Positions 26,219-43,779 of a stretch of DNA of 44,226 nucleotides are shown here, piece by piece. This DNA comes from a virus: UHGV virus genome UHGV-0346409. One strand, given 5' to 3'. Positions within the stretch are counted from its first letter, which is position 1; each line of letters opens with the position of its first letter. The notes beneath the pieces were generated by a model. That model searched no databases and was not told the DNA's origin. It was given only the letters and a program-made list of their open reading frames with translations. The position numbers were made by a program, and so were the translations under genes.

Positions 26219-26448
26219 TGTCGCGCGAGGTTTTAACAGAACGGCTGCTGGAAGCTGAAATTGCCCTGCACAAATTATTAACGGGTAGATCGACTGTATC
26301 GCTGTCTCACGGCGATTCAGCGGGAAATAACCGGAGCTATCAATACTCACAGGCGAGTATTGAACAGCTCCGAACGTACATTATCGAGCTGAAATCACAG
26401 CTCGGTCTGAGTACGGGACGCCGCCGTCCCGTGGGAGTTCGATTATGA
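26215..26448 (+). CDS. Head-tail joining protein, lambda gpW-like
   Basis: 77 aa. Position and pattern (ALHKLLTG...QLRTYIIELKSQLG...RRRP) are like gpW. Confidence 0.6.
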   Translation: MMSREVLTERLLEAEIALHKLLTGRSTVSLSHGDSAGNNRSYQYSQASIEQLRTYIIELKSQLGLSTGRRRPVGVRL

Positions 26449-28016
26449 CTGCTCAGCAGTTGCTCGGGCCTGACGGTAAAACGCCACTACGCCGTTACGC
26501 GGGGTATAACGGCGGCGGTCCCGGCTTCGGTGGCCAGCTGATTGACTGGAATGCACCACAGCAAAGCGCCGATGCGGCACTGCTGCCTAATTTTTATCGC
26601 GGTAACGCGCGAGCAGACGATCTCGTTCGTAATAACGGCGTCGCGTCGAACGCCGTGCAGCTGCATCAGGATCATATCGTCGGCAATCTGTTTAAGTTGA
26701 GTTATCGCCCTAACTGGCGTTACATCGGGATATCTCGCGAGGACGCCAGGGCGCTGGCGCGTGACGTTGAGGTCGCGTGGACTGAATACGCCGAGGACCC
26801 TCACTGCACGATTGATATCGAGCGGAAACGGACGTTCACAATGATGATTCGCGAAGGCGTGGCCACTCACGCGTTCAACGGTGAAACCTGCGTACAACCG
26901 GTGTGGGAGAGCTGCGCCGGCAGCGTTTTTCGGACGCGATTCAAAATGGTCTCACCGAAACGAATTCGAAATCCTGGCTACGCAGCTGACACTCAATTTC
27001 GCCGCGCCGGTGTTGATATCGATAAAAACGGGGCCGCGGTTGGGTACTGGATAGCCGAGGATACCTATCCCCTCGGCGGAGTTGGTAAATGCCGGCGCAT
27101 ACCAGCAAAACTCAGCAGCGGCAGACACGCATTCATTCACATATTCGAGCCGCTCGAGGACGGACAAACCCGCGGAGATAACATTTTTTACAGCGTAATG
27201 GAGCGGCTGAAAATGCTCGATACGCTGCAGCAAACACAGCTGCAGAGCGCCATCGTGAAGGCGATGTACGCCGCCACAATCGAATCAGAGCTCGACAGCC
27301 AGCAGGCGTTTGAATATATCGCCGGCGCGGGTACTGATATCGACTCGAACCCGCTGAGTTCGTTTATTCAGAGTTACGTGACGTACTACAACGGCGCAAA
27401 TATCAAGCTCGGTGGTGTGAAAGTTCCCCACCTGCATCCCGGCGACAAACTCAGTTTACAGACCGCTCAGAATGCTGATGCTGGTTTCAGTTCGCTGGAA
27501 AAATCACTCCTGCGTTACGTTGCCGCTGGCGTCGGCGCGTCATATGAGGAACTGAGTCGGGACTACAGCCAGGTCAGTTACTCCAGCGCGCGGGCCAGCG
27601 CAAACGTGAGCTGGCGTTTTTTCATGGGCCGTCGACGTTTTATCGCCGCACGACAGGCGTCACTGATGTTCTGCTGCTGGTTTGAGGAAGCTCTGGCGCG
27701 CGGAGTTATCACCCTGCCACGCTCAGCGGTCCGGTCGTTTTATGAAGCGCGGAACTCCTGGACGAACGCGCTCTGGATCGGCGCTGGTCGCATGGCGATT
27801 GATGGGCTGAAAGAGGTTCAGGAGAGCGCCATGCGCATCACGACTGGCCTCAGCACGTATCAGAACGAACTCGCGCTGCAGGGGCAGGACTACGAGGAGG
27901 TCATGGAACAACAGGAATACGAAATTCAGCGCCGGCGCGAAATGGGGCTGAGCGAACCATCCTGGTCAGTATCTCACCCCTCAAATACCAACGATAACGG
28001 CTGGGGAGGTAACTGA
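26445..28016 (+). CDS. Portal protein, lambda gpB family
   Basis: 523 aa, in the position after gpW. Lambda-family portal features. Confidence 0.85.
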   Translation: MTAQQLLGPDGKTPLRRYAGYNGGGPGFGGQLIDWNAPQQSADAALLPNFYRGNARADDLVRNNGVASNAVQLHQDHIVGNLFKLSYRPNWRYIGISREDARALARDVEVAWTEYAEDPHCTIDIERKRTFTMMIREGVATHAFNGETCVQPVWESCAGSVFRTRFKMVSPKRIRNPGYAADTQFRRAGVDIDKNGAAVGYWIAEDTYPLGGVGKCRRIPAKLSSGRHAFIHIFEPLEDGQTRGDNIFYSVMERLKMLDTLQQTQLQSAIVKAMYAATIESELDSQQAFEYIAGAGTDIDSNPLSSFIQSYVTYYNGANIKLGGVKVPHLHPGDKLSLQTAQNADAGFSSLEKSLLRYVAAGVGASYEELSRDYSQVSYSSARASANVSWRFFMGRRRFIAARQASLMFCCWFEEALARGVITLPRSAVRSFYEARNSWTNALWIGAGRMAIDGLKEVQESAMRITTGLSTYQNELALQGQDYEEVMEQQEYEIQRRREMGLSEPSWSVSHPSNTNDNGWGGN

Positions 28017-39092: not shown

Positions 39093-39223
39093 TAATTCTG
39101 ATTCCGTTTATTGCGAAAAAACTTGCCATCCCGCCCGATACGCAAATGGACCTGCCGTATCGGGTTTTTAATTTCTATGTAAACGAGGTCATGAAAACCG
39201 ATGGCTATTTCTCAAAACTTTAA
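38811..39223 (+). CDS. Tail assembly chaperone, -1 frameshift long form (gpE+E'-like)
   Basis: The -1 frame is open from 39053 to TAA 39221..39223 and encodes ...ILIPFIAKKLAIPPDTQMDLPYRVFNFYVNEV.... The candidate slip site GGTAAAG (39059..39065) shares A-AAG with lambda G/GT. Confidence 0.45.
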
Positions 39224-40841
39224 AACGCAGGTTGTATTTGGGGGAAGAATAGACCCGTCGTTTCGGCGCGGTACAACAGAACTCAACGATGCAATTCGGC
39301 AGACGTCGTCTACTGTCGGAAAATTAACGAAAAGCCAGGATAAATTAAAAGACAAAATCGCAGCAATGAAACTGGCGGGTAAAGACGTTTCTGATTTATC
39401 TGCTCAGTATCAAAAGCTGGACCGTCGGATAAAAGCGACAACACAGGACCAGGAAGCTCTGAATACTCAGCTCGCCAAAAAACAGCGGCTGGAGAAGTGG
39501 ACGGGGCGCGCAAAAGGTGCTGCAAAATGGGGAGGGCGAGCCGCCGCAGGTGCGGTGAGGGCCACGGGACGGGGTATCAAATGGGGGACGCTGGGGGCCG
39601 TGGGTCTGCTCGGCGGCGCGGCTGCTGGCGCGTTGGCAATGAATGCAGAGACGTCAGAAAAACTCGGTCTGGCGAAGTCCTACGGTGTTGGCATCGAAAA
39701 ATACGCTGCGTGGGAAAATATTGGTAAAGCTGCAGGGCTGAATGGCGAAAACGTAGGAGATCTGTCGGAGGAGTTGACTAATAAAATCGGGGAGGTTGGA
39801 AACGAAAAAAACCTGAACCCCATGTTGTTTCAAATTGGCCTGACAAAAAAACGGATGGCTAAATGGGATCGAGAAAAACAGTTCAATGAAGTTATGCGGC
39901 GTATCTCTGAAATGAAGGATGATCAACAGGCGGCGAGTCTGGCTGATCAGCTCATGGGGGGGGAAGCTAATAAAATAATGACTTATATGCGGGCGACTGG
40001 TAAAAGCTGGGAGCAGACTCTGTCGGACGCTCAAAAATCAAACCTGCTAACGAAAGAAGGGGCTGAGGGTGCAGCGCGCGCGCACGTATCCGTCACGAAT
40101 CTGTGGGGGGCAATCACATCGGGGCTGGCAGATACTCTCGGGAAAATCGGAGGGGAACTCGCGCCGACGTTTGACGCTATGCGAGACGGGCTGGCATCCT
40201 GGTTTAAAGAGAATCAAGGGGGGGTTGTTGATAGTATTAAAGAATGGGTTAAGCCAGAAAATATGAAAAAAATGTGGGAGGGGATAGTCAGTTTTGGCGA
40301 GGCGTGCGTTAAATTCGGAAAAATAATTTGGGCAGTCGTAAAAAAACTGGAGTGGTTAATACCGGACGAGAAAACAGACGAGGAGCAGCGCGTATATAAC
40401 GAAGAATATAATAAGGCGTATCAGGAATTCATGGATGGCGGAGGAAAATATTCACCAAACCCAGGAATGGCGGCGGATAATGTTGCAAAAGCAAAAGCCG
40501 CCGAAGCCGTGGATAATATGCGACACCCTGAACGTCTTGCTCGTGCAAAATCACAGGCTGAATCACTGCTCTCGTTTGCTAACCCGTTTACTGGATTAAT
40601 AAATAAAGGCTCAACGCCTGAATCACAAAACTCAGCAACGTTGAATATTGACGCGCTGAGACAAGCAGTCGCAACTCCAGCGCCAGAGCAAAACAATAAA
40701 ATTGAAATCAATATTATCGGAGCGGCAGATCCACAATCAACACAGCAGGCTGCTGCATCGGGTGTGCTCGACGGGCTGAGACAAGTTGCGAGTTCGTACA
40801 ACCGTGGTGCGATGTTTGATAAACCAGCGGCGGCGGGGTGA
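39201..40841 (+). CDS. Tape measure protein
   Basis: 546 aa with coiled-coil and Gly/Ala-rich segments. It sits after the chaperone pair. Confidence 0.8.
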   Translation: MAISQNFKTQVVFGGRIDPSFRRGTTELNDAIRQTSSTVGKLTKSQDKLKDKIAAMKLAGKDVSDLSAQYQKLDRRIKATTQDQEALNTQLAKKQRLEKWTGRAKGAAKWGGRAAAGAVRATGRGIKWGTLGAVGLLGGAAAGALAMNAETSEKLGLAKSYGVGIEKYAAWENIGKAAGLNGENVGDLSEELTNKIGEVGNEKNLNPMLFQIGLTKKRMAKWDREKQFNEVMRRISEMKDDQQAASLADQLMGGEANKIMTYMRATGKSWEQTLSDAQKSNLLTKEGAEGAARAHVSVTNLWGAITSGLADTLGKIGGELAPTFDAMRDGLASWFKENQGGVVDSIKEWVKPENMKKMWEGIVSFGEACVKFGKIIWAVVKKLEWLIPDEKTDEEQRVYNEEYNKAYQEFMDGGGKYSPNPGMAADNVAKAKAAEAVDNMRHPERLARAKSQAESLLSFANPFTGLINKGSTPESQNSATLNIDALRQAVATPAPEQNNKIEINIIGAADPQSTQQAAASGVLDGLRQVASSYNRGAMFDKPAAAG

Positions 40842-41266
40842 CAATGAGTGATGCGATAAACGGTGCTGAGGATATCATGCTAGGCGTGGGTGATTTCATT
40901 TTTGCTATATCAACAGTAGCGTACAACAAACTGCAACGTAGTGACGCCTGGCGCTGGGCTCAGCAAACACGGTTCGGAAAAAACGACGCATTGCAGATAA
41001 CCGGACGACCGAACCCCACAATCACGATCGATGGGAAAATAAATGCCTTATTCCTTGATGGGTGCGGCATTGGCTTGTTAACAGATTTGCGGGCGCTGGG
41101 GAACTCGGGAGAACCCCAGCAACTGGTGCTGGGGACCGGGGAGGTGAAGGGGTACTGGGTTATCAGGGAGTTAACAGAAACGCAAAACAGTTTTCTGAAA
41201 GGAGGGACCCCAAAATCGCAGGACTTTTCACTCACGCTCGAATATTACGGAGCTTCGCTGGATTGA
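40838..41266 (+). CDS. Tail protein, P2 gpU-like
   Basis: FIFAISTVAYNKLQRSDAWRW...TIDGKI...GYWVIRELTETQ parallels P2 gpU. Confidence 0.8.
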   Translation: MTMSDAINGAEDIMLGVGDFIFAISTVAYNKLQRSDAWRWAQQTRFGKNDALQITGRPNPTITIDGKINALFLDGCGIGLLTDLRALGNSGEPQQLVLGTGEVKGYWVIRELTETQNSFLKGGTPKSQDFSLTLEYYGASLD

Positions 41267-41505
41267 ACTTCTTTCGGTTTTTTATCACCGAGAGCGGACC
41301 ACAGCAACAGAATGATCCACATCAAAAATATCCATCCGAATAATATATTCAGAATAACGACCATTGCGCAGCTTTTATGTCCCCTTATTAGAGCAATTAC
41401 TAACGGTATTACGTATAAAATGATGGATATTAACGGGTTCGCCATTAACCATATATACAGAGCGATAACCCACGCAAATAATTCCATTTGAGGCCTCATA
41501 ATCAT
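41245..41505 (-). CDS. Superinfection-immunity-family small membrane protein (Imm_superinfect-like), antisense insert in the tail operon
   Basis: 86 aa with two or three TM segments. IPLVIALIRGHKSCAMVVILNILFGWIFLMWIILLLWSAL fits the family pattern YFLPsiIA..R.H.n...IfllNllLGWT..GW..AL.WA. Confidence 0.72.
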   Translation of the reverse strand: MIMRPQMELFAWVIALYIWLMANPLISIILYVIPLVIALIRGHKSCAMVVILNILFGWIFLMWIILLLWSALGDKKPKEVQSSEAP

Positions 41506-41716
41506 GATTACATATACGACGCGGGACGGTGACCGTCTCGATCAAATCTGCTTTGCGGTCTACGGGAGAGCGTCAAAAACGACAGAGACTGTTTTATATC
41601 AGGTTTCGAATTACGGCGTAACTGATATGTGTGCCGTGTTTCGTGCTGGAGAAAAAATTGTTTTACCCGATATCGAACCAGAACCGGTTAAAAAAGAAAC
41701 GCAATTATGGGATTGA
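41504..41716 (+). CDS. Tail protein X (P2 gpX-like, LysM-type)
   Basis: DGDRLDQICFAVYGR...ETVL...VLPDIEP...QLWD parallels P2 gpX. Confidence 0.85.
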   Translation: MITYTTRDGDRLDQICFAVYGRASKTTETVLYQVSNYGVTDMCAVFRAGEKIVLPDIEPEPVKKETQLWD

Positions 41717-41719
41717 TGA

Positions 41720-42763
41720 ATGAGTGATTACGTAAATACTGGCGTGGAGGCGTGGAAACCTAATTTTTATATATCTGCTGATAATAAAAACATCACGGAT
41801 AAAATAAGAAAAGGTTTGATCAATATCACGCTGACAGATTACGGCGGTTCCAGTAAACAGACAGACGAACTCCGCGTAGCAATAGTTTCTGAAACTCTGA
41901 AAATTCCGGCCCGTGGAGTGAAAATTAGCATTGGGCTCGGTTTCGGTAATCAGATAATTGATAAAGGCATATACATCGTTGACGGTGCTAGCAGTGGCGG
42001 TGAACCCCGGGTAGTTGATTTCACAGCAAAAGCGGCTCCGATGAACGCGGCAAAGGGCTCTCCAACAGTTCAGAGCAAAAAGACGCGCTCATGGAGCGAC
42101 GTCACCGTCAGCGATATCGTTGCGACAATAGCGAGCGATAACGGGCTAAAACCTCGCGTATCAAAGCGGTTTGCAGACAACATTATCACGCAGCTCGATC
42201 AAGTCGGTGAGTCAGATATGCACCTGATGTCGAGACTAGCAACACGATTCGATGCGGTGAGCAAACCCGCAGGAGGGTACTGGATATTCCTGCCGCGTGG
42301 CGCGGGCGAATCTGTTAACGGAGCACCGCTTCTGCACTACACGCTCACGCGTCGTGATAACTCCAGCTGGGGTTATTCGAGAAATGGACAAAACGGCGAT
42401 AGTGGCGGAGGTGGCGAAAATTCGGAGCCGACATATCTGATCAAATACCACGATACGGCAACAGGGCAGATCAAGGAGCTGCGCACAGGCAGTGGTGGTG
42501 ATCCTGTCATTGAATGGCCGGCAGTTGAGCCGTCGCTCGACGCAGCGAAAGAGGCCGCGCCGGGGCTAAAAGGAGGTGCGGCTAAAAAAGAGTTTTCCAT
42601 GACGTACACAACGCCAGCAACGCTCGATTTAGTATCGCTGACTGCAGAATGCAAAGTCACAACACAAGGGTTCGGGACAGAGGAGGACCGAGACTGGACA
42701 ATCAATACGTTGACGCTGACGCTGGCTGAAAACGGATTCTCTGCGCGACTGTCGCTGGAGTAA
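41720..42763 (+). CDS. Late control / tail protein D (P2 gpD-like)
   Basis: 347 aa, in the position after gpX. Confidence 0.8.
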   Translation: MSDYVNTGVEAWKPNFYISADNKNITDKIRKGLINITLTDYGGSSKQTDELRVAIVSETLKIPARGVKISIGLGFGNQIIDKGIYIVDGASSGGEPRVVDFTAKAAPMNAAKGSPTVQSKKTRSWSDVTVSDIVATIASDNGLKPRVSKRFADNIITQLDQVGESDMHLMSRLATRFDAVSKPAGGYWIFLPRGAGESVNGAPLLHYTLTRRDNSSWGYSRNGQNGDSGGGGENSEPTYLIKYHDTATGQIKELRTGSGGDPVIEWPAVEPSLDAAKEAAPGLKGGAAKKEFSMTYTTPATLDLVSLTAECKVTTQGFGTEEDRDWTINTLTLTLAENGFSARLSLE

Positions 42764-42768
42764 ATGAA

Positions 42769-43779
42769 ATGGCAATAATATCGGGTGTATACGCAAATGG
42801 GGTCGGCGAGCCCGTTGTCGGCGTTCAGTTAGTATTAACAGCACGGGTCACGAGTTCACGCGTAGTAATGACCACTGTTGTAGAGCAAGAAACAGGCGCG
42901 GCGGGTGAGTACAAATTTGATATGAATCCCGGAGTTTACGTTGTCACTGCTAGTGCGGCATATCTCGGCGTGATTAACGTTAACCCGGACAGTGTTGACG
43001 GCACGTTAAACGACTATTTGACTAATTTTAGCGCAGACGAACTGACGCCAGCTGCGTTGGCGGAGATTCAAGAGCTAGTATCGGCTGCGAAAAATGCTGC
43101 AGCAGCAGCAGACGCCAGCGCCAGTGCGGCGCACACATCTGAAACTAACAGCGCGAACAGCGCAGCAGCAGCAGCAGCGGCAGCCGCCAGTCTTGACTCG
43201 TCAAAATTCGCAAAACTCGATAAGGAAAATGAATTTCTGGAAAAAAACAAATTCAAAAAATTGGCGACATTTTTGTTGGGTGCCACGTTTGACTCACCGG
43301 CGACATTTAATAACAATATCCAGATAGGGAAAAATTCAGCAGGCAACACAAATACAGCATCATGCTATACTGACTTTGATTTATACTTCGGTCGTTCTGT
43401 CCGAATTTATTCCACTACAGTTGACGGGGTCAAAAAAAACGGTCAATTAGCATTTTGGAGTCCCGGAGGAATATTTCCTGACGCATATATAGAACGCAAG
43501 GAAAATTCTTATTTGCAGATTTACGATCACAACGCCTCTAGCCTAAAAATTGACTTTCCCTACGGTGCTGCAAATGGTCTGCAATACGTTGGGGCTGATA
43601 GGATTGCCCGATCAATATTTCATGATGGGCATCTCCCGCCCGCAGCAGCTGTAGTGAGTAAACTACCCACAGGAGCAGAACCTAAGACCGCGTTTTACTT
43701 CATCAGCGGAGACGAAAAACTTTATTTTGCATACGGAAATAAAAAATATTATATACCCGTGATCATTGATGATGATTGA
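42769..43779 (+). CDS. Second tail fibre protein with a lambda Stf-type N-terminal domain
   Basis: ISGVYANGVGEPVVGVQLVL...GVYVVTAS...GTLNDYL plus an Ala/Ser-rich linker parallels the prophage tail fibre N-terminal domain of lambda Stf. Confidence 0.7.
   Translation: MAIISGVYANGVGEPVVGVQLVLTARVTSSRVVMTTVVEQETGAAGEYKFDMNPGVYVVTASAAYLGVINVNPDSVDGTLNDYLTNFSADELTPAALAEIQELVSAAKNAAAAADASASAAHTSETNSANSAAAAAAAAASLDSSKFAKLDKENEFLEKNKFKKLATFLLGATFDSPATFNNNIQIGKNSAGNTNTASCYTDFDLYFGRSVRIYSTTVDGVKKNGQLAFWSPGGIFPDAYIERKENSYLQIYDHNASSLKIDFPYGAANGLQYVGADRIARSIFHDGHLPPAAAVVSKLPTGAEPKTAFYFISGDEKLYFAYGNKKYYIPVIIDDD

What the first reader, a model, noticed from the sequence alone, without database searches (positions are those of the whole stretch)
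41245..41505. Superinfection-immunity-like membrane gene wedged antisense between tail genes gpU and gpX, with interlocked start codons
An 86-aa, multi-TM protein matches the Imm_superinfect pattern (…IALIRGHK…ILNILFGWIFLMW…LLWSAL). It is encoded on the opposite strand inside an otherwise uninterrupted plus-strand tail operon.

Its 3' end overlaps the gpU 3' end by 22 nt. Its ATG (41505..41503) overlaps the gpX ATG (41504..41506) within the palindrome AATCATGATT. Its promoter must therefore lie inside gpX coding sequence.

This is a classic moron position. The gene would be expressed from the repressed prophage and silenced by, or colliding with, late transcription. It probably gives the lysogen protection against DNA injection by other phages.
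Basis: partly seen in the sequence, partly recalled or inferred. Interest (0 to 1): 0.55.

Follow-up and report, generated by a model that had tools for sequence, protein, structure and literature searches.

The report
T4 Imm-like gene antisense in tail operon
A small membrane-protein gene related to phage T4's superinfection-immunity gene really does sit backwards between two tail genes of this E. coli prophage, but databases already annotate it, its function is inferred only from homology, and the "interlocked start codons" are an accident of this allele.

Summary
The ORF at 41245..41505 (-) is a real gene under purifying selection. It is a genuine homologue of T4 Imm: PF14373 scores 42.5 bits against a cutoff of 27.9, and BLASTP gives 34% identity over 65 aa. 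RefSeq already calls it "superinfection immunity protein".

The likely start is ATG 41487 (80 aa), not 41505. Every homologue starts there behind a Shine-Dalgarno, and the two upstream ATGs are not conserved. The interlocked start codons are therefore incidental.

Comparison adds three points:
- Related tail modules have gpU and gpX only 8-9 nt apart, which is the empty state.
- Other modules carry different low-GC cargo in the same slot. The ORFs that fill most of the gap are antisense, and most look membrane-anchored.
- In 8 of 9 contexts examined, Imm-like relatives down to about 36% identity lie beside the tape-measure/U/X/D genes, 7 of them antisense. Their identity roughly tracks gpD identity.

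So this is a long-resident passenger of a P2/phiCTX-type tail-tip module, not a recent insert. I found no consensus promoter or terminator. Expression in the lysogen and blocking of DNA injection remain inferences. It is a new member of a known kind and of modest interest.

The parts
41245..41487 (-). Most likely coding sequence of the T4 Imm-like membrane protein (80 aa plus stop), MELFAWVIAL...SSEAP
   Evidence: PF14373 scores 42.8 bits on the 80-aa form. Homologues of 79-81 aa start here. BLASTP against T4 Imm gives 34% identity over 65 aa, E 5e-13. Purifying selection: pN 0.10-0.23 with pS at or near saturation, 0.72-0.92.
41488..41505 (-). It is probably 5' UTR holding the ribosome-binding site, not coding sequence.
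   Evidence: The upstream ATGs are out of frame in L005 and absent in L009 and L010. No homologue carries the extension, apart from near-identical alleles such as L012 and L013.
41490..41497 (.). Palindrome GAGGCCTC. It places a GAGG Shine-Dalgarno 6 nt before the imm ATG (minus strand, 41497..41494) and 10 nt before the gpX ATG (plus strand, 41490..41493).
   Evidence: Read directly. SD-like purine runs precede the conserved imm ATG in all relatives.
41267..41503 (.). Low-GC cassette of 237 nt filling the gpU-gpX junction.
   Evidence: Homology to the 94-98% identical sister module breaks at the gpU stop codon and resumes at the gpX ATG. Cassette GC is 0.38 against about 0.50 in the flanks. 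Empty junctions of 8-9 nt occur in L024-L028 and L030.
41245..41266 (.). 22-nt convergent overlap of the imm 3' end with the gpU 3' end. It encodes the poorly conserved C-terminal tail of Imm.
   Evidence: An overlap of 19-22 nt is conserved in L005-L010. The tail (residues 69-79) has pLDDT below 50.
39201..40841 (+). Putative tape-measure protein (546 aa) of the tail module.
   Evidence: Assigned by position, after the Phage_TAC_7 tail assembly protein and before gpU. There was no significant family hit.
40844..41266 (+). gpU-like tail protein.
   Evidence: PF06995 Phage_P2_GpU, E 1e-32. The start follows the RefSeq annotation.
41504..41716 (+). Tail protein X. Its 5' coding region must contain any dedicated imm promoter.
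   Evidence: PF05489, E 2e-15. It is divergent from imm with a gap of 16-22 nt in all carriers that have it next to gpX.
41720..42763 (+). gpD-like baseplate hub / late control protein.
   Evidence: phrog_52, E 6e-93. PF05954 scores 23.7 bits, below its cutoff.
41593..41601 (-). Weak candidate extended -10 (TGATATAAA) about 100 nt upstream of imm, inside gpX. This is speculative.
   Evidence: Found by manual reading. It fails the consensus scan. Its conservation is explained by the gpX Leu-Tyr codons.

Best explanation
The feature is an 80-aa, three-helix small membrane protein homologous over its whole length to phage T4 Imm. It is encoded antisense in a 237-nt low-GC cassette between gpU and gpX. 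These genes belong to the P2/phiCTX-type contractile-tail tip module (T-U-X-D) of a prophage in E. coli that combines that tail with lambda-type head and regulatory genes.

Shown:
- It is a real gene under purifying selection.
- It belongs to the family.
- It starts at 41487.
- The slot is empty in some related modules and holds other cargo in others; the ORFs that fill most of the gap are antisense.
- The closest Imm subfamily has travelled with this tail module down to about 36-40% identity.

Inferred:
- It inserts into the inner membrane.
- Like T4 Imm, it prevents the DNA of an adsorbed superinfecting phage from crossing the cytoplasmic membrane.
- Because it faces against the late operon, it cannot be made from the late transcript. 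It must be transcribed separately, most plausibly at a low level from a weak promoter inside gpX in the lysogen or early after infection, and it would be opposed by late transcription.
- The range of phages excluded is unknown. By analogy with HK97 gp15 and TP-J34 Ltp, sensitivity may depend on the tail tip or tape measure of the incoming phage.
For: Family membership:
- PF14373: 42.5-42.8 bits against a cutoff of 27.9.
- phrog_1039, which also contains T4 Imm.
- BLASTP against T4 Imm: 34% identity over 65 of 80 aa, E 5e-13. In a multiple alignment the N-termini also align, METL against MELF.

Gene reality and architecture:
- pN 0.10-0.23 with pS 0.72-0.92, the same regime as gpU and gpD.
- Hydropathy and the AF2 model give helices 2-16, 18-35 and 39-67 and a disordered tail.

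Start codon and SD.

Slot biology:
- The empty junction is 8-9 nt. Alternative low-GC cargo in the same slot ranges from 169 to 1265 nt, and the ORFs that fill most of the gap are antisense.
- Imm-like genes lie beside T/U/X/D in 8 of 9 informative look-ups, 7 of them antisense.
- Imm identity broadly tracks gpD identity: 81/87, 72/73, 75/73, 43/60, 38/41, 41/41 and 40/43.

Precedents:
- HK97 gp15 is a small inner-membrane protein encoded by a tail-operon moron, expressed from the prophage, that blocks genome entry depending on the incoming tail (PMC3594210).
- P2 fun(Z) is an antisense lysogenic-conversion gene between tail operons.
- T4 Imm blocks DNA injection (PMC11436027, citing Lu & Henning 1989).
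Against: - The minus strand has no sigma-70 consensus promoter between 40800 and 42000. Relaxed scanning finds only 7/12 matches.
- No intrinsic terminator or stable hairpin lies downstream of the stop codon.
- There is no PADLOC or NCBIfam hit.
- To my knowledge (not checked in a paper here), T4 imm acts during lytic infection and not in lysogeny, so timing cannot be transferred by homology.
- The family is very large: 2925 50%-identity clusters at E<=1e-3. Only T4 Imm has been characterised.
- Family members without the N-terminal helix sit in unrelated contexts.
- No paper in the searchable library tests a prophage Imm homologue.
- Membrane topology is unresolved. The positive-inside rule puts the RGHK loop in the cytoplasm, but distant homologues have zinc-ribbon-like C-terminal tails, which suggests a cytoplasmic C-terminus.
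Confidence: 0.55

Rival explanations
1. The protein is the same, but it is used during lytic growth as in T4. It would be made early after induction or infection to protect the already infected cell from secondary adsorption, DNA injection or membrane damage by sibling or competing virions. It would not be a lysogenic-conversion function.
For: T4 Imm is made by the primary infecting phage and contributes to resistance to lysis from without (PMC6832632, section 5.4). No constitutive-looking promoter was found. Co-divergence with the tail module suggests a phage-beneficial core accessory rather than a host-beneficial moron.
Against: The antisense orientation excludes expression from the late transcript. 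No early promoter is nearby, because the gene lies more than 15 kb into the late region. Known tail-operon membrane morons such as HK97 gp15 are prophage-expressed (PMC3594210).
Confidence: 0.2
2. It is a small membrane protein of the PF14373 fold with a role unrelated to blocking phage DNA entry. Examples would be membrane stress or envelope modification, a holin-like or toxin-like activity, or protection against membrane puncture by contractile tails or tailocins rather than against DNA injection.
For: Only one family member has been characterised. The family has thousands of clusters, many outside tail modules. Abedon's review notes that Imm reportedly resembles a holin (PMC6832632). The neighbouring slot cargo consists of unrelated proteins that mostly look membrane-anchored and have unknown function.
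Against: Homology to T4 Imm runs over the full length, with the same size and architecture. The persistent linkage to the tail-tip genes is most simply explained by a function at the step where a tail tip meets the inner membrane.
Confidence: 0.2
3. The ORF is not the functional unit. On this reading the cassette acts through antisense transcription or RNA that dampens leaky gpU/gpX expression, or the ORF is a decaying remnant.
For: The 3' end overlaps gpU and the 5' end abuts gpX, so any transcript is antisense to tail mRNAs. The sister cassette present in 435 genomes does look like a truncated remnant.
Against: There is strong purifying selection on the protein frame across relatives whose synonymous sites are at or near saturation. 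The start codon and SD are conserved. The Pfam domain is intact. Rfam gives no match.
Confidence: 0.04

Closest known systems
Phage T4 Imm (immunity to superinfection; PF14373 / phrog_1039)
   Same: They are homologous over essentially the whole length: 34% identity over 65 aa, 80 aa against 83 aa. They share the hydrophobic N-terminal region, the basic loop (RGHKS against RGSKS) and the long Trp-rich helix.
   Different: T4 is virulent. Its imm sits among same-strand genes next to gene 43 (DNA polymerase) and acts alongside Spackle (PMC11436027). Here the gene is in a temperate prophage, antisense inside the tail operon. Whether a Spackle homologue is present in the window was not examined. 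The timing and target range are unknown.
HK97 gp15 (YebO-like) tail-operon moron
   Same: Both are small inner-membrane proteins encoded by an extra gene inside a tail operon next to the tape-measure region. HK97 gp15 is expressed from the prophage and blocks genome entry in a way that depends on the incoming phage's tail genes (PMC3594210; PMC10883804).
   Different: There is no detectable sequence relationship: only PF14373 hits at E<=1. [quoted passage not shown] Here the tail is contractile, the slot is U-X, the gene is antisense, and no promoter or terminator pair is recognisable.
P2 fun(Z) lysogenic-conversion gene
   Same: Both are non-essential genes on the opposite strand within the tail-gene region of a P2-type tail. 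fun(Z) blocks another phage, T5.
   Different: Fun(Z) is a large, unrelated protein lying between two separately promoted operons. Here an 80-aa gene is wedged within what is an 8-9 nt translationally coupled junction in related modules.
P22 SieA / TP-J34 Ltp / Tuc2009 Sie2009 injection blockers
   Same: They are prophage-encoded membrane proteins that stop DNA delivery after adsorption (PMC10883804).
   Different: The families are unrelated, and they sit in different genomic locations on phages with short or non-contractile tails.

Membership tests
PF14373 Imm_superinfect / T4 Imm family | Profile score above the curated gathering threshold | tested here: met
   42.5 bits (86 aa) and 42.8 bits (80 aa) against 27.9. 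T4 Imm itself scores 58.2 bits.
PF14373 Imm_superinfect / T4 Imm family | Direct similarity to the founding member T4 Imm across most of its length | tested here: met
   BLASTP gives 34% identity and 62% positives over 65 aa, E 5e-13. Both fall in phrog_1039. The N-termini align in A6.
PF14373 Imm_superinfect / T4 Imm family | A protein of about 80 aa that is hydrophobic apart from a short basic loop and a polar C-terminal tail | tested here: met
   Hydropathy profile. The AF2 model has helices 2-16, 18-35 and 39-67 at mean pLDDT 67.
PF14373 Imm_superinfect / T4 Imm family | Localisation in the cytoplasmic membrane | not testable with these tools
   This needs fractionation or reporter fusions. 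The topology is ambiguous from sequence.
PF14373 Imm_superinfect / T4 Imm family | Blocks DNA injection of superinfecting phage | not testable with these tools
   No experimental report on any prophage homologue was found.
Moron (Juhala/Hendrix sense, as summarised in PMC3594210) | Extra DNA that is present or absent between otherwise collinear related genomes | tested here: met
   The U-X gap is 8-9 nt in L024-L028 and L030, against 237-242 nt with imm and 169-1265 nt with other cargo.
Moron (Juhala/Hendrix sense, as summarised in PMC3594210) | GC content different from the surrounding genes | tested here: met
   Cassette GC is 0.37-0.38, against about 0.50-0.53 in gpU and upstream.
Moron (Juhala/Hendrix sense, as summarised in PMC3594210) | Own promoter | tested here: inconclusive
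   There is no 9/12 or better sigma-70 match on the minus strand. The best relaxed matches are 7/12. A weak extended -10-like TGATATAAA lies at 41601..41593.
Moron (Juhala/Hendrix sense, as summarised in PMC3594210) | Own terminator | tested here: not met
   No terminator-like site was found, and the downstream fold has z = +0.67. A distant homologue in L033 does have a strong terminator after imm.
Moron (Juhala/Hendrix sense, as summarised in PMC3594210) | Horizontally acquired independently of its flanks | tested here: inconclusive
   Imm identity tracks gpD and gpU identity down to about 40%, which points to vertical inheritance with the module. Yet modules 94-98% identical carry a completely different cassette, which points to replacement.
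Moron (Juhala/Hendrix sense, as summarised in PMC3594210) | Expressed from the repressed prophage | not testable with these tools
   This needs lysogen RNA-seq or 5'-end mapping.
HK97 gp15 / YebO family | Sequence membership | tested here: not met
   The Pfam scan at E<=1 returns only PF14373. The resemblance is functional and positional only.
Catalogued anti-phage defence systems (PADLOC-DB 2.0) | Match to a defence-protein model | tested here: not met
   No hit at E<=0.1.

The most novel reading that the evidence does not exclude
The N-terminally extended Imm subfamily may be a co-evolving, near-integral companion of P2/phiCTX-type tail-tip modules (tape measure-U-X-D), not a generic moron. 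It would act as a self-type immunity factor that recognises or obstructs the tail-tip/tape-measure complex of the same tail lineage at the inner membrane. That would protect lysogens and kin from injection, or from membrane puncture, by sibling phage or tailocin-like particles. The U-X junction would then be a dedicated slot for antisense-encoded envelope proteins of this kind.
Probability: 0.2. Interest if true: 0.6.

Novelty: new member of a known kind. Interest (0 to 1): 0.33.

Why it matters
If the protein blocks DNA entry, it would be a prophage-borne counterpart of T4 Imm, whose mechanism is still unknown decades after its discovery. It would come in a much simpler genetic setting: one 80-aa gene, natural empty and alternative alleles of the same slot, and a family of co-diverging tail-tip genes in which to look for the target.

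The comparative result gives a concrete handle on how contractile-tail phages cross the inner membrane and how that step is blocked. The slot is reused by low-GC cargo whose main ORFs are antisense and mostly look membrane-anchored, and the Imm subfamily tracks the T-U-X-D module.

Tried and rejected
- tblastn of the protein against 50,697 phage records found no match at E<=1e-3. No deposited phage genome carries a close homologue.
- Foldseek of the AF2 model against BFVD was uninformative. The best hit was an Acinetobacter phage 'immunity protein' at E 0.12. The model is of low to moderate confidence and is a simple helical bundle.
- NCBIfam and PADLOC gave no hits. Rfam gave no hits.
- Promoter and terminator scans in the window and in L032 and L033 gave nothing convincing upstream of imm. 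The -10-like strings inside gpX are explained by conserved gpX codons, so I do not claim a promoter.
- The search for related loci failed with the broad Imm alignment, and the narrower one returned only 6 loci. I did not analyse those 6 loci; I sampled contexts with the look-up of encoding contigs instead.
- The genome-contig scan with gpU returned a single locus.
- Pfam and PHROG scans of the alternative cargo proteins in L022 and L023 gave no assignments.
- The primary T4 Imm papers (PMC250924, PMC237878) and the HK97 gp15 paper (PMC3430355) are not held. I used secondary sources.
- I rejected the plus-strand 59-aa ORF at 41312..41491 as the gene. It is the shadow frame of imm and was not scanned against any profile library; the Pfam hit and the purifying selection are in the minus-strand frame.

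Full report
**What is there.** The window is a complete-looking prophage in E. coli.
- It has an integrase-side left end, lambdoid regulators, a lambda-type head and a P2/phiCTX-type contractile tail.
- The 1.2-kb stretch around the finding is 100% identical to prophages in E24377A, SE11, RM10042 and other strains.
- The tail end reads tape measure (39201..40841), gpU (40844..41266, PF06995), a 237-nt gap, gpX (41504..41716, PF05489), gpD (41720..42763) and a tail-fibre N-terminal-domain protein.
- On the minus strand of the gap lies the ORF 41245..41505.

**It is a real gene and a real Imm homologue.**
- PF14373 scores 42.5 bits against a gathering score of 27.9, and phrog_1039 'immunity to superinfection' hits at E 3e-14.
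- I fetched T4 imm. It hits the same two models.
- It aligns to the window protein at 34% identity over 65 residues with E 5e-13. In a multiple alignment the N-termini also align.
- Four alleles at 70-83% protein identity have pN 0.10-0.23, with synonymous sites at or near saturation (pS 0.72-0.92). gpU and gpD show the same regime.
- RefSeq already names the gene 'superinfection immunity protein'. The identification itself is therefore not new.

**The start codon.**
- All homologues, from 100% down to about 36% identity and including T4 Imm, begin at the equivalent of Met7.
- At the DNA level only that ATG (41487..41485) is conserved. It is preceded by GAGG, AAGGA or GGAG at a distance of 4-8 nt.
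- The protein is therefore 80 aa, and the divergent imm and gpX starts are 16 nt apart (16-22 nt in relatives). The 'interlocked start codons' are incidental.
- RefSeq's 66-aa model in E24377A (start 41445) removes a conserved first helix and is probably too short.
- The palindrome GAGGCCTC (41490..41497) supplies a GAGG on both strands, 6 nt before the imm ATG and 10 nt before the gpX ATG.

**Architecture.**
- Hydropathy and an AF2 model (mean pLDDT 67) give helices 2-16, 18-35 and 39-67 and a disordered tail.
- The loop RGHKS is the only charged interruption.
- Topology cannot be settled. The positive-inside rule puts that loop in the cytoplasm. Two distant homologues, however, carry CxxC...CxxC tails that would normally be cytoplasmic.

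**The slot.** I surveyed the U-X junction in 23 related loci.
- Six modules with gpU at 61-65% identity have U and X only 8-9 nt apart.
- Imm cassettes are 237-242 nt.
- A sister module that is 94-98% identical in its flanks carries an unrelated 173-nt cassette at exactly the same boundaries, from the gpU stop to the gpX ATG. It holds an antisense 44-aa ORF.
  - That ORF is 60% identical to the N-terminal anchor of a 166-aa protein in L023.
  - The short cassette therefore looks like a remnant.
- L023 carries two antisense proteins, each with a hydrophobic N-terminal segment, in a 1265-nt gap. L022 carries other antisense ORFs in 590 nt. Short plus-strand ORFs also occur in both gaps.
- All cargo is low-GC (0.30-0.38), and the ORFs that fill most of each gap are antisense.
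- Among 5,426 complete E. coli genomes, 456 hold the tail module, 435 hold the remnant cassette and 18 hold this imm cassette.

**Imm travels with the tail tip.** I looked up the genomic context of progressively more distant homologues.

| Homologue | Identity to the window protein | Position |
|---|---|---|
| L005-L010 | 81-71% | Antisense between U and X |
| P0018 | 47% | Divergent from X (1.1-kb contig; the gene on the other side weakly resembles the tape measure) |
| P0022, P0023 | 41-42% | Antisense between tape measure and X |
| P0019, P0020 | 43%, 39% | Antisense immediately after gpD |
| P0021 | 36% | After X, in the sense orientation |

- That makes 8 of 9 informative contexts, 7 of them antisense.
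- Imm identity broadly tracks gpD identity: 81/87, 72/73, 75/73, 43/60, 38/41, 41/41 and 40/43.
- Two family members that lack the N-terminal helix sit elsewhere.
- So this is not a recent 'more-on'. It is an old, frequently lost or replaced companion of this tail-tip module.

**Expression is not established.**
- The consensus scan finds no sigma-70 promoter on the minus strand and no terminator.
- A relaxed scan gives only 7/12 matches.
- The downstream RNA does not fold better than shuffles.
- Because the divergent starts are 16-22 nt apart, a dedicated promoter must lie in gpX coding sequence. The -10-like strings there are explained by conserved gpX codons.
- Rfam finds nothing.
- One distant homologue, in L033, is followed by a strong terminator.

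**Mechanism.**
- By homology with T4 Imm, which blocks DNA injection (PMC11436027, PMC6832632), I consider an inner-membrane block to genome entry the most likely function.
- The analogy with HK97 gp15 points the same way. That protein is a small inner-membrane product of a tail-operon moron. It is expressed from the prophage, and its exclusion depends on the tail genes of the incoming phage (PMC3594210, PMC10883804).
- Transcription would be independent of the late operon.
- This is inference. No paper in the library tests a prophage homologue.
- The rivals are: use in the lytic cycle as in T4; a different membrane function; or a purely antisense or remnant role, which purifying selection makes unlikely.

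**Verdict.** The start-codon feature is an artefact of taking the longest ORF. What this analysis adds is the comparative picture: an empty state, a reusable slot whose main cargo is antisense, and co-divergence with T-U-X-D. That picture is worth a modest follow-up.

Noticed in passing
L047 402-433 (NZ_CP033250.1, about 1019785-1019816), matching L005 4004-4035: A 32-nt E. coli type I-E CRISPR spacer (GAAATTTTCACATGGATTGTAGCCCTGTATAT) occurs in 38 of 5,426 complete genomes. It perfectly matches codons 2-12 of the sibling imm allele, which is 81% identical to the window's. The protospacer is preceded by the imm start codon ATG, which is a canonical AWG PAM. The window's allele differs at about 9 of the 32 positions and would not be targeted.
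   Followed up: partly
L003 2968-3140, L002 2972-3106 (-); same slot as window 41267-41503: 435 of 5,426 E. coli genomes carry a near-identical tail module next to yecA. Its U-X gap holds a different 173-nt, 31%-GC cassette with an antisense 44-aa ORF (MRINFSS...CSGSA). That ORF is 60% identical to the N-terminal anchor of a 166-aa protein in L023, so it looks like a truncated remnant.
   Followed up: partly
L023 2923-4185; L022 2891-3512: Other tail modules carry larger antisense cargo in the U-X junction. L023 has two proteins (166 and 220 aa), each with a hydrophobic N-terminal segment. L022 has several ORFs, one with a signal-peptide-like N-terminus. None has a Pfam or PHROG assignment.
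   Followed up: partly
window 41490-41497: The palindrome GAGGCCTC gives a GAGG ribosome-binding motif on both strands for the divergent imm and gpX starts. The sister cassette has the analogous palindrome GGGGCCCC before gpX.
   Followed up: no
window 41445 (RefSeq start in NC_009801.1, WP_224695433.1): RefSeq's gene model in E24377A is 66 aa and drops the conserved first helix. Most other database entries are 80 aa.
   Followed up: yes
window 26445-28016; L004 17094-20794: The window's portal gene is intact (523 aa). In the related prophage in E24377A, the portal gene is split by an IS21-family element (ISEc62 istA/istB).
   Followed up: no
P0020, P0021, P0018, P0019, P0022 (loci L031-L035, L042): Distant tail-associated Imm homologues carry about 30 extra C-terminal residues. 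These are either a CxxC...CxxC zinc-ribbon-like motif or a highly charged helix. This bears on which side of the membrane the C-terminus faces.
   Followed up: no
window 42769-43779: The last tail-fibre-like gene (PF08400 N-terminal domain) is only 336 aa here, against 609 aa in L005 and 454 aa in L009. In the E24377A copy, about 1 kb of unannotated DNA then separates it from host yodB. The fibre may be truncated at the prophage end.
   Followed up: no
L002 (ON470596.1) and sister records ON470604, ON470624, ON470627: These deposited 'phage genomes' of 19.8-27 kb contain the tail module plus the host gene yecA. They look like prophage-region or defective-element assemblies rather than complete phages.
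   Followed up: no
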